This document shows positions 27,001-30,000 of a DNA stretch of 37,100 bases, piece after piece; position 1 is the stretch's first letter; each line of letters begins with the position of its first letter. Made by a program: the position numbers. Source of the stretch: Spirochaetales bacterium (GTDB taxonomy: Bacteria > Spirochaetota > Spirochaetia > Treponematales > UBA12059); assembly GCA_016928955.1 (NCBI GenBank), contig JAFGJV010000055.1, forward strand, positions 1 to 37,100. Direction: 5' to 3'.

Positions 27001-30000
27001 ACGTGATCGCGCTGAACGTGGACTCGGCAAGCTTCACGCAGATCGAGGAAGAGGCCGGCGGCGACCCGGACAAGATCGGGCAGAAGATCATGTCCATCGT
27101 GGGCGAGCGCGGCAAGCAGCAGAATCCCGTGACCGGTTCCGGCGGCATGTTCATCGGCACCGTGGCCAAGATCGGCCCGGCGCTCAAGGACCGCGACCTC
27201 AAGGTGGGCGACAAGATCGCAAGCCTGGTGTCGCTGTCGCTCACCCCGCTCAAGATCAAGCGCATCATCAAGGTCATGCCCGAGGTGGACCGCGTCATGA
27301 TCGAGGGCCAGGCCATCCTGTTCGAGTCCGGCATATACGCCAAGCTTCCCACCGACATGGACGAGGGACTGGCCCTGGCCGCCCTGGACATAGCCGGAGC
27401 TCCCGCCCAGACGGCCAAGCTGGTCAAGCCGGGCGACAGCGTGCTGGTGCTCGGCGCCGGCGGCAAGTCCGGGCTCATGTGCTGCTACGAGGCCATGAAG
27501 CGCGTCGGGCCTACCGGCCGCGTGCTGGCCAACATCCGCAACGAGAAGTACGTAAAGCCCCTGCGGGACATGAAGCTCTGCCACGAGATAGTCATGGCCG
27601 ACTCCACCAAGCCCGTGGACGTGCTCAACGGCGTGCTCAAGGCAAACAAGGGCAAGGAAGTGGACGTGGTCATCAACTGCGTGAACCTGCCCGGCTGCGA
27701 GATGGCCAGCATACTTCCCGTGCGCGACAACGGCATCGTATACTTCTTCAGCATGGCCACCAGCTTTACCCGCGCGGCGCTCGGAGCCGAGGGCATAGGC
27801 AAGGACGTGCTCATGATCATCGGCAACGGCTACACCAAGGACCACGCCGAGATCACGCTCTGGGAGCTCAGGGAAAACGCCCAGCTCCGCGCCTTCTTCG
27901 AGCAGCAGTACGTTAAGTAAGGCGTTTCCGCCCAAGGCGGGAGCGACCAGGTAAAAATTCAAGGCGCGCGCAGCAACGCGAACACGTTGGCCACGCGCAC
28001 CCGGCCAGGAAGCACGGCAAGCCGGTCCGCGATGAGCGCGGTCAGCCGGCGGGGGCAGTCCGACTTCCGGCTGCGAAGGGTCGTCCGTCGGCCGTTCGCG
28101 GCGGCGACCGGGCGTATGTAATGTGAGAAGACGGGTAACCGTCTCTCGCCCCGGGGGCTCCCCGTCCCCGGCGCGGCGAGCGAGCGCCATCCGGCAATCC
28201 GGACCAGACGCGCGCAAGCCGGAAGCGGTGGAGGCCGGACGGGTTCCGGCGGGATGGACGAGACCATCCGTCACCATGCGTTTTCAAGGAAGCACACTAT
28301 GGCGAGAGAGTATCCCAAGCTCAAGCTGGACAAATCCATGTCCATGTTCGAGGAGGCCCAGCGCCTGTCCCCCGGCGGCGTGATGGGCATACGCAGACCC
28401 TACAACTTCATCCAGGGCGAGTACCCCATCTTTATCGATCGGGGTTACGGCGGGCACATCGTCGACGTGGACGGCAACGACTACATAGACATGCTCTGCG
28501 CCTACGGCCCGGTGATCCTGGGCTACGACGAGAAGGAAATCAACGACGCGGTCAAGCACCAGATGGACCACAACGGCTTCTGTTTCAGCCTGGTCCAGCC
28601 GGCGCAGAACGAGCTTGAGCGCGCCGTCATCGATATGGTGCCCTGCGCCGAGCAGGTCATACCCGTCAAGACCGGTTCGGACGCCACCACCCTGGCCGTC
28701 CGCATCGCGCGCGGCTACACCGACCGCTCCGTGATCCTGCGCTGCGGCTACCACGGCTGGCACGACTGGTGCGTGGAGAACCACGGCGGCGTGCCCGAGG
28801 AGACCCTGGCCCTGACCGACGAGTTCGAGTACGGCGACCTTGCCGACCTGGAGCGCAAGCTGGACGCGCACAAGGGCAAGGTTGCCTGCGTGATCATCAC
28901 GCCGGTGGGCCATCCCCTGGCCAAGCCCGTCCAGGCGCCGCCGCCCGGTTACCTGGAAGGCGTCCGCGACCTGGCCCACAAGCACGGCGCCGTGCTCATC
29001 TTTGACGAGATACGGACCGGCTTCCGCGCCGCCCTGGGCGGAGCGCAGGAACGCTACGGCGTGACGCCGGACCTGGGCACCTTCGGCAAGGCCATGGCCA
29101 ACGGCTACCCCATATCCTGCGTGGCTGGCAAGCGCGAGATCATGTCCGTGTGCGAGAAGAAGGTGTTCGTGAGCTCGACCTTTTTCCCCAACAGCCTGGA
29201 AATGGTCGCCGCCATCAAGTGCATGGAGATACTCAAGCGCGAGGACGTACCCAACAAGATATGGGAGCGCGGCACCCGCTTCCTGGCCGGCATCCAGAAG
29301 GCCGTGGACGACACGGGCTCGCCGATAACGGTATCCGGCATTCCGCCCATGCCCTTCTTCACCTTTGACCAGGCGCCCGGCGACCCTGACAAGACGTATA
29401 AGGCCCGCCGCGAGTATTTCTACACGCAGACCATACGCCGCGGCCTTTTCATCCAGCCCTTCCACCACTGGTACATAGCGTACCGGCACACGGAAGCCGA
29501 CCTGGCCAAGGCCCTGTCCGCCATCCGGGAAAGCCTGGAACTGATGATGGACAAGTACCCGGTGAAGAGGTAATACGGAAAGCGAACCACGGAGGCACGG
29601 AGAAGAGGATGTAGGGTGGAGACAAGGGAGCGGGATCCATGAACCAAGGATATCATCGCGAGCGCGATAGAGGTGCGCCGTGAACTTGGTCCGGGTTTGC
29701 TTGAGAGCATATGCGATGACGATAGAATTGGATGCGCTGGGCTTGCGCTACCAGAGGCGGGTTCGCTTGCCGGTCATCTACAAAGGCAGGGCGTTGCCCT
29801 GTGTATTCCGCGTTGTAGCCCTTGTTTTTTCTGCGACTCTGTGCCTCGGCGGTTAGCCTATTCGTTTGTATCGTTGATAACTGGAGGTATCATGTCATTG
29901 GACGGTAAGATCGTAATTACCTGCGCCTGTACGGGCGCGGAGACCAGCAAGGAACTCCAGCCGGCCCTGCCCATCACGCCTGAGGAGGTGGCCAAGACGG

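What a model noticed while it worked through the whole genome (the two positions that open the first line are those of the whole stretch)
28000..28298. Large conserved structured RNA inside the lysine-fermentation operon (after kdd)
The 378-nt gap between kdd (3,5-diaminohexanoate dehydrogenase, g00798) and the next gene of the lysine-fermentation operon has no called gene. It holds a ~280-nt sequence kept across the family, with invariant blocks (GGCGGGGGCAGUCCG, [sequence left out], GGAUGGACGAGACCAUCC) and ten helices, one of them a long-range closing helix. I read it as a new class of riboswitch-like cis-regulatory RNA that senses an intermediate or cofactor of lysine fermentation and gates kce/kamA/kamDE downstream. 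Its 3' strand AUGGAC can pair either with GUCCGU (closing helix) or inside the hairpin GGAUGG-ACGAGA-CCAUCC, as an expression platform would. No Rfam family matches it and my one paper search found nothi [...]
Evidence so far: Coding: no gene is called here. The sense strand has stops in all three frames (longest run 67 codons). The antisense strand has one stop-free run of 121 codons, as expected at 70% G+C, but the alignment of relatives is full of 1-2-nt indels and length-variable hairpins. Conservation: 21 of 24 other UBA12059 genomes match (11 of 12 genera, own included), up to 81% over 290 nt, core 93-97%. Structure: RNAalifold on 18 sequences gives 52 pairs, 27 with compensatory double changes. 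count_structure_pairs: 90.2% of 922 cells are paired vs 40-46% when partners are slid 1-3 columns; covariation score 0.314 vs 0.08-0.10 slid and 0.169+-0.010 shuffled; 0 of 500 shuffles reach any of the five measures [...]
(Added by a program. Inside this text positions count along the whole contig: contig position 1 is position 1 of the stretch shown here. "Call 12" and the like, gene names such as g00115 and contig names such as C1 are that model's own, and its searches are not shown. The text may have been shortened before it was handed on; [...] marks where a part breaks off. The agent that wrote the report below was given it as the finding of a first reader that could run no searches.)

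Follow-up and report, generated by a model that had tools for sequence, protein, structure and literature searches.

The report
New folded RNA in lysine-fermentation operon
Between two lysine-fermentation genes of uncultured spirochaetes lies a conserved, three-part folded RNA of no catalogued family that most likely acts as a switch for the genes after it, although what it senses is not known.

Summary
Window 28000-28279 holds a sense-strand RNA of three domains between kdd and a kat-like aminotransferase gene. A fold of local helices passes the covariation test (96.1% of 1334 cells paired, 17 of 46 pairs with double changes, 0 of 500 shuffles). The RNA is not confined to one family: 32 of 42 family genomes and 9 of 69 genomes of a sister family, one copy each, after kdd wherever flanks were read. 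Rfam has no match. An invariant G5 bulge probably kisses an invariant CUCCCCG loop (inferred). A cis role is suggested by a promoter at its 5' end in 8 of 46 copies and a ribosome-binding site shortly after its last hairpin. Best reading: a new riboswitch class that turns lysine fermentation on (0.55). Lysine is the leading ligand, but canonical lysine riboswitches coexist in 21 of 41 carriers. No binding, switching or transcription was shown. This scan found the RNA before in another genome (e1-2383523).

The parts
26702..26732 (+). Intrinsic-terminator-like hairpin with U run, closing the upstream unit
   Evidence: consensus scan
26786..26814 (+). Sigma-70-type promoter of the operon (TTGACA, 17 nt, TATAAC)
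   Evidence: a promoter-like site lies before kdd in 25 of 33 loci with enough flank; sites listed. Consensus match only
26880..27920 (+). kdd, L-erythro-3,5-diaminohexanoate dehydrogenase
   Evidence: NF052381 above cut-off
28000..28112 (+). RNA domain 1: closing helix P0 (28000-04 with 28108-12), P1 (28008-17 with 28060-68), P2 (28021-25 with 28046-50) and its variable hairpin, hairpin P3 (28072-28100)
   Evidence: P1 and P2 covary; P0 and P3 from the alignment by eye and constrained folds, not counted
28051..28059 (+). Invariant bulge GGGGG-C-N-G opposite C-R-A (28018-20); proposed partner of loop L5
   Evidence: G5, C and G in 46 of 46 copies; pairing with L5 never varies, so it is untested
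28123..28221 (+). RNA domain 2: hairpin P4 (28123-49), hairpin P5 (28151-71) with invariant loop CUCCCCG (28158-64), linker CG, long hairpin P6 (28174-28221); closed to a four-way junction by a GUAC/GUAC-type helix in many sister-family copies
28225..28279 (+). RNA domain 3: closing helix P10 (28225-31 with 28271-79), hairpin P8 (28234-50), hairpin P9 (28252-69) with near-invariant loop ACGAGA (28258-63)
   Evidence: P9 covaries; P10 from folds and a cross-pairing test, clear in 15 of 15 sister-family copies and weak in 17 of 31 family copies
28286..28292 (+). Shine-Dalgarno-like site of the next gene, 22 nt after the L9 motif
28299..29573 (+). Class III PLP aminotransferase, by context the 3-aminobutyryl-CoA aminotransferase Kat
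   Evidence: PF00202; the name is inferred from gene context and PMC3149608, not from a comparison with the characterised enzyme
29892..30719 (+). [quoted passage not shown]
   Evidence: NF052387, 360.9 bits, just under the cut-off of 382; start
30934..36354 (+). [quoted passage not shown]
   Evidence: kamA and kamD above cut-off, kamB and kamC below

Best explanation
A new class of metabolite-sensing mRNA switch (riboswitch candidate) that gates kat/kce/kamA-D but not kdd, most likely turning them ON. Shown by comparison: sense-strand RNA, three domains of covarying local helices, invariant unpaired bases in all three, strict linkage to this operon. Inferred: a ligand stabilises docking of the G5 bulge of domain 1 on loop CUCCCCG of domain 2, with the ACGAGA loop of domain 3 completing the pocket. 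Inferred, weaker: folded domain 3 holds a CCUCC-type strand in helix P10 and so leaves the ribosome-binding site free; unfolded, that strand masks the site. This fits the sister family. In this window and in genera that lost kat the output must differ; the U/C-rich tract after P10 in those genera could be a Rho loading or RNase site. Ligand, given a switch: lysine about 0.35, a pathway intermediate (beta-lysine, 3,5-diaminohexanoate, 3-keto-5-aminohexanoate) about 0.25, a cofactor (AdoCbl, SAM, PLP) about 0.25, other 0.15. These shares are judgement.
For: Covariation. Strand: 89 G-U cells against 3 A-C cells. Linkage: 26 of 42 GTDB pattern hits lie after kdd and the other 16 lack the flanking helices by eye; 25 of 27 metagenome hits lie in the operon; one copy per genome. 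Gained or lost as a block: at least 4 changes on a quick kdd tree, 7 by parsimony; RNA-less spacers are often only 17-93 nt. Promoter-like extended -10 placed so that the transcript would start at the first helix in 8 of 46 copies, against 1.4% in shuffles. Start codon about 27-39 nt after the L9 motif in 19 of 21 copies followed by kat, while the distance from the kdd stop ranges from 29 to 120 nt. No sense-strand terminator in the gap. The orthologous operon has a canonical lysine riboswitch in front in 5 of 15 Bacillota loci, and PMC5584792 describes such switches as activating. A sludge strain differs at 9 sites plus an indel in the 80 nt before the RNA but at 2 of 299 sites within it (contig 3 of X1).
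Against: No ligand binding, switching or transcription was shown. The anti-SD swap is weak: opening the SD costs on average only 0.9 kcal/mol more without P10 in sister-family copies (6 of 14 above 1 kcal, 1 the other way), and the family copies split 3 against 3 of 8. The RNA is kept in genera that lost kat and its SD, 106-263 nt from the next gene (G030 and G038 have no close kat). 38 of 46 copies, this window included, have no promoter of their own. Canonical lysine riboswitches occur in 21 of 41 carrier genomes, before lysine-biosynthesis-type genes in the 10 read, which weakens the need for a second lysine sensor. The kissing pair never varies. At about 280 nt it is large for an aptamer (own knowledge).
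Confidence: 0.55

Rival explanations
1. A cis-acting element that needs no small molecule: a processing or stabilising structure, a binding site for a protein (for example an enzyme of the pathway), or a self-cleaving ribozyme that separates kdd from the downstream mRNA.
For: It lies inside an operon with a conserved upstream promoter, 38 of 46 copies have no own promoter, and it survives loss of kat and its SD. A U-rich tract and a long hairpin follow it in genus g10. Invariant unpaired bases fit a catalytic core as well as a pocket.
Against: A plain stabiliser would not need invariant bases in three distant loops. Copies with their own promoter at the 5' end have nothing upstream to cut away. 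No known ribozyme family matches.
Confidence: 0.22
2. A stand-alone structured RNA that acts in trans and only sits in this operon, as the raiA motif RNA sits between raiA and comFC.
For: Size and complexity; own promoter in 8 of 46 copies; precedent in PMC10861870 (abstract), where a fixed gene context hid a trans-acting RNA.
Against: Never found away from this operon. Lost repeatedly, four times together with kat in the loci read. No terminator after it in this window, and the next SD follows within 14-23 nt in 22 copies.
Confidence: 0.18
3. A remnant of a mobile element, a repeat, a hidden small gene or an already described RNA.
For: Patchy presence; stop-free frames cross the RNA in 41 of 46 copies; supplements of the motif surveys were not read.
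Against: One copy per genome; 0 viral pattern hits; segment lengths fall in all three classes modulo 3; double changes recur in separate genera; no Rfam match for the window or 18 homologous loci.
Confidence: 0.05

Closest known systems
Lysine riboswitch (L-box, RF00168) used as an ON switch before kal/kce/kdd/kamA
   Same: Same pathway and a matching position before kce and kamA (5 of 15 Bacillota loci; PMC5584792 passages); a long-range loop contact is proposed in both.
   Different: No Rfam score; three separate domains instead of one five-way junction; no loop-loop L2-L3 kiss; coexists with true lysine riboswitches in 21 of 41 carriers.
ZTP (pfl) riboswitch, as a working analogue (recalled, not from a call)
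   Same: An internal-loop strand of one domain pairs with the loop of a distant hairpin across a linker; ligand would glue the two.
   Different: No sequence or model match; far larger, with a four-way junction and a third domain.
Cobalamin riboswitch (RF00174)
   Same: KamDE needs AdoCbl; GAGACC recalls the B12 box (recalled); four-way junction with a C-rich kissing loop.
   Different: No match; GAGAC here is a hairpin loop with a covarying stem; no T-loop seen; a true cobalamin riboswitch lies elsewhere in the genome.
raiA motif RNA (PMC10861870)
   Same: Intricate structured RNA fixed between two genes.
   Different: raiA RNA is in over 2,500 species and acts in trans; this RNA was found in two families, is easily lost, and abuts the next SD.
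c-di-AMP riboswitch (RF00379) before kamA (PMC5737381 passage)
   Same: A known RNA control of kamA.
   Different: No match in the gap or in the genome.

Membership tests
Lysine riboswitch RF00168 | Covariance-model score at or above 30 bits | tested here: not met
   no hit at E up to 10 in 27800-28450 or at E up to 5 in 18 homologous loci
Lysine riboswitch RF00168 | Single five-way junction with L2-L3 loop-loop contact (PMC3082890, start of abstract in the search listing) | tested here: not met
   the supported helices form three separate domains
Lysine riboswitch RF00168 | Binds L-lysine | not testable with these tools
   needs probing or calorimetry
Cobalamin riboswitch RF00174 | Model score at or above 31.5 bits; B12 box as a junction strand | tested here: not met
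   no hit; the GAGAC motif is the loop of covarying hairpin P9
c-di-AMP riboswitch RF00379 | Model score at or above 38 bits | tested here: not met
RNase P RNA / tmRNA | The genome's single copy of the family | tested here: not met
   both lie elsewhere in the genome at full score; ARAGORN finds nothing in the window
Riboswitches in general | Conserved structure with invariant unpaired bases | tested here: met
   7 of the 47 loci parsed came from a pattern scan and carry two of the motifs by construction
Riboswitches in general | Lies on the sense strand 5' of genes of one pathway | tested here: met
Riboswitches in general | Expression platform with alternative pairing | tested here: inconclusive
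Riboswitches in general | Direct ligand binding that changes expression | not testable with these tools
   no data
Trans-acting large structured RNAs (raiA type) | Discrete abundant transcript with own ends | tested here: inconclusive
   only contigs of RNA libraries were available, which cannot show ends or level

The most novel reading that the evidence does not exclude
A categorically new, three-domain aptamer fold that senses lysine or a lysine-fermentation intermediate (beta-lysine, 3,5-diaminohexanoate or 3-keto-5-aminohexanoate) and switches the pathway on from inside the operon, leaving kdd ungated. It would be either a second, independently evolved lysine aptamer living beside the L-box in the same cells, or the first RNA sensor of a beta-amino-acid intermediate known to me.
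Probability: 0.33. Interest if true: 0.88.

Novelty: new variant of a known kind. Interest (0 to 1): 0.68.

Why it matters
Few amino acids have known riboswitches (PMC5584792 lists glycine, lysine and glutamine), and new ligand classes are rare. This candidate has a short, purchasable or enzymatically accessible ligand list and a clear mutational test (G5 bulge against loop CUCCCCG), so it can go straight to in-line probing. If it binds lysine, one genome would hold two unrelated lysine aptamers, one for synthesis and one for breakdown. If it binds an intermediate or is catalytic, it is a new RNA activity. If it is only a processing element, it is still an uncatalogued RNA family of anaerobic spirochaetes.

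Tried and rejected
RNAalifold on my 29-row alignment gave yet another pairing for the G-rich blocks, from invariant columns only, so I set it aside for the covarying local helices. Identity with RNase P RNA, tmRNA, tRNA, lysine, cobalamin or c-di-AMP riboswitches: rejected. T-box, hammerhead, glmS, HDV-like ribozyme and group II intron domain 5 were considered by eye from recalled motifs; none fits the covarying helices and Rfam gives no hit. Coding function: segment lengths vary in all frames. Wider range: 0 of 149 spirochaete genomes outside the family in a phylum sample (strict filters, 18 candidates scored per genome, no sister-family genome seen among the listed rows); 0 of 52 distant kdd loci and 0 of 20 close RNA-less loci, with 5 of 5 positive controls found; 0 viral hits. 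More distant forms that changed the exact motifs could be missed. Expression: contigs of four RNA-library runs cover the RNA at a depth like that of kdd and kat, and one contig bridges kdd, the RNA and kat; contigs cannot show strand, ends or level, and these libraries may hold DNA (records to 140 kb), so this is no evidence either way. The hope that the RNA and the canonical lysine riboswitch exclude each other failed. The careful kdd tree did not finish; the quick tree was used, with 4 short kdd rows left out. Paper searches found no description: plus term searches in the main text of PMC5737381, PMC11109978, PMC8632094, PMC7160235 and two 2026 preprints.

Full report
Setting. The window is contig C14 of a 2.87-Mb, 99.5% complete genome; named records that carry the same RNA are spirochaete MAGs. 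From 26880 the genes are kdd, a class III aminotransferase, kce, kamA, kamB-like, kamC-like and kamD. By context the aminotransferase is Kat, which replaces Kal in a variant lysine-fermentation route (PMC3149608: abstract and section 9 read; no direct sequence comparison). A terminator-like hairpin at 26702-26732 and a promoter-like site at 26786-26814 precede kdd; such a site is seen in 25 of 33 related loci. The gap after kdd is 378 nt, 70% G+C.

The RNA is real. A DNA search of 42 family genomes gave 30 loci; 29 had kdd just upstream and the thirtieth is cut by its contig end. The next gene is kat, kce or kamA. On the 29-row alignment I named 46 pairs in 7 helices: 96.1% of 1334 cells pair, 17 pairs have double changes, 0 of 500 shuffles reach any measure, and slid partners pair at 45-57%. 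The structure was derived from these sequences and kin are related, so I also counted by genus in 46 distinct copies from 21 groups: P1 has 16 double changes and 6 breaks, P2 14 and 4, P5 3 and 0, P9 21 and 7. G-U cells outnumber A-C cells 89 to 3, which fixes the sense strand. Segment lengths fall in all classes modulo 3, so it is not a gene, although stop-free frames are common at this G+C. A sludge strain has 9 substitutions and an indel in the 80 nt before the RNA, 2 in the 299 nt of the RNA and 6 in 466 nt of kat. The lone sequence is not more stable than shuffles (z -1.19).

The GUCCGU block pairs locally in P1. The long helix with AUGGAC is no better than shuffles, has 6 double changes and 17 breaks by genus, and its fifth pair holds in 7 of 15 sister-family-like copies. 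Constrained folds (output partly cut; I read the rows shown) and the alignment give three domains. Domain 1 is P0, P1-P2 and P3, with a bulge of five G between P2 and P1. Domain 2 is P4, P5 with loop CUCCCCG, and P6, closed in many sister-family copies by a GUAC/GUAC-type helix. Domain 3 is P10 around P8 and P9, with loop ACGAGA. C and A of the 5' bulge, the five G, the following C and G, all of loop L5 and the CG linker are the same in 46 of 46 copies, and the L9 motif in 44 of 46. All 47 loci given to the parser fitted it (one duplicate dropped); 7 came from a pattern scan and carry L5 and L9 by construction. The G5 bulge can pair with UCCCC of L5 in every copy, but the pairs never vary, so the kiss is inferred. 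One copy (L099) has shrunk domain 3 to hairpin P9 alone, which marks P9 as essential.

Range. A covariance model of domains 1-2 finds one copy in 32 of 42 family genomes, 11 of 12 genera (29 trained it), and in 9 of 69 genomes of a sister family that did not train it. It finds none in 149 other spirochaete genomes (strict filters), in 52 distant kdd loci or in 20 close loci without the RNA, with 5 of 5 controls found. Pattern scans that ignore gene context gave 26 of 42 GTDB hits after kdd and 25 of 27 metagenome hits in the operon; the remaining 16 and 2 lack the other helices by eye. Viral contigs gave 0. On a quick kdd tree of 66 rows the RNA needs 7 changes, at least 4 forced by strong branches. 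Where it is missing the spacer is often 17-93 nt.

Cis or trans. Eight of 46 copies have an extended -10 element placed so that transcription would start at the first helix, against 1.4% of shuffles; this window is not among them and must rely on the kdd promoter. In 19 of 21 copies followed by kat the start codon lies about 27-39 nt after the L9 motif (L025 and L026 are farther), while the distance from the kdd stop runs from 29 to 120 nt (itself only took copies with a near SD). No sense-strand terminator lies in the gap. In the sister family P10 pairs an SD-like GGAGG strand with a CCUCC strand just before the true SD; own partners beat cross-family partners in 15 of 15, but only in 17 of 31 family copies. 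Removing the 5' strand raises the cost of opening the SD by 0.9 kcal/mol on average in 14 sister-family-like copies (6 above 1 kcal, 1 the other way), and the 8 family copies split 3 to 3. That is a plausible but weak platform. Against a purely translational switch, the RNA persists in genera without a near kat or SD, 106-263 nt from the next gene and followed by a U/C-rich tract. RNA-library contigs cover it but cannot show transcription, ends or level.

Ligand. The orthologous operon carries a canonical lysine riboswitch in 5 of 15 Bacillota loci, and PMC5584792 (passages read) describes such switches as activating catabolic genes. That makes lysine the first candidate. Against it, canonical lysine riboswitches are in 22 of 42 family and 58 of 69 sister-family genomes, 21 of the 41 carriers included; the 10 downstream genes read (of 13 loci tried) are asd-, dapB-, aspartokinase- and M20-peptidase-type. 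This genome has none. AdoCbl, SAM and PLP are cofactors of the gated enzymes (established knowledge); a true cobalamin riboswitch lies elsewhere in the genome and no c-di-AMP riboswitch was found. Leaving kdd outside the gate would suit an intermediate as signal (inference).

What is known. Rfam 15 has no match for the window, the gap or 18 homologous loci. Eight paper searches and term searches in the main text of PMC5737381, PMC11109978, PMC8632094, PMC7160235, 10.64898/2026.10.21.760802 and 10.64898/2026.09.15.751765 showed no description. I did not read their supplements, where most motifs are listed; those of the preprints are closed, and most subscription papers are not in the library. 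PMC10861870 (abstract and outline read) is the caution: the raiA motif RNA has a fixed gene context yet acts in trans. The comparisons with ZTP, T-box and ribozyme motifs are recalled. An earlier agent of this scan reported the same RNA in another genome (e1-2383523); that is not independent support.

Verdict. A real, uncatalogued three-domain RNA tied to the lysine-fermentation operon of two spirochaete families. Riboswitch-like ON switch 0.55, other cis element or ribozyme 0.22, trans-acting RNA 0.18, other 0.05. It is not a member of any family tested. Interest 0.68.

Noticed in passing
window 29574-29891: The kat-kce spacer holds what looks like a decayed GxxExxY-type gene piece (family name recalled) between inverted repeats; a sludge strain has 150 other letters in place of 29603-29807.
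   Followed up: partly
L106, L101, L105 (after kdd): Where the RNA is absent, similar purine-rich/pyrimidine-rich inverted repeats fill the spacer; in L106 they flank an open GxxExxY-like reading frame (by eye). Possibly a small mobile cassette that targets this operon's spacers.
   Followed up: no
G000:C42:1488-2516 (L180): A second kdd paralogue (56% identity) in this genome and many relatives, without kce or kamA within 1.5 kb and without the RNA.
   Followed up: partly
L100, L104, L144 (after the RNA): kat is lost but its SD and start codon remain; in L100 and L104 a short reading frame runs from there to the kce start, which could couple kce translation to the RNA (by eye).
   Followed up: no
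L009-L023 (genus g10), after the RNA: A 40-nt U/C-rich tract and then a long hairpin precede kce: possible Rho or RNase site and stabiliser.
   Followed up: partly
window 26822-26870: The kdd leader holds a CCGG-closed hairpin in many family genomes but not in most sister-family loci.
   Followed up: no
families f1 and f4, L216-L245: Canonical lysine riboswitches are common in these spirochaetes (22 of 42 and 58 of 69 genomes), before lysine-biosynthesis-type genes; the main text of PMC5584792 never mentions spirochaetes.
   Followed up: partly
window 20593-25013: A TPR protein, a PelG-type exopolysaccharide exporter and an HDOD protein lie upstream of the operon.
   Followed up: no
window 28254: An AUG inside hairpin P9 is in frame with kat here and in L002, which makes ORF finders start kat 45 nt too early; it is not kept in the sister family.
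   Followed up: yes
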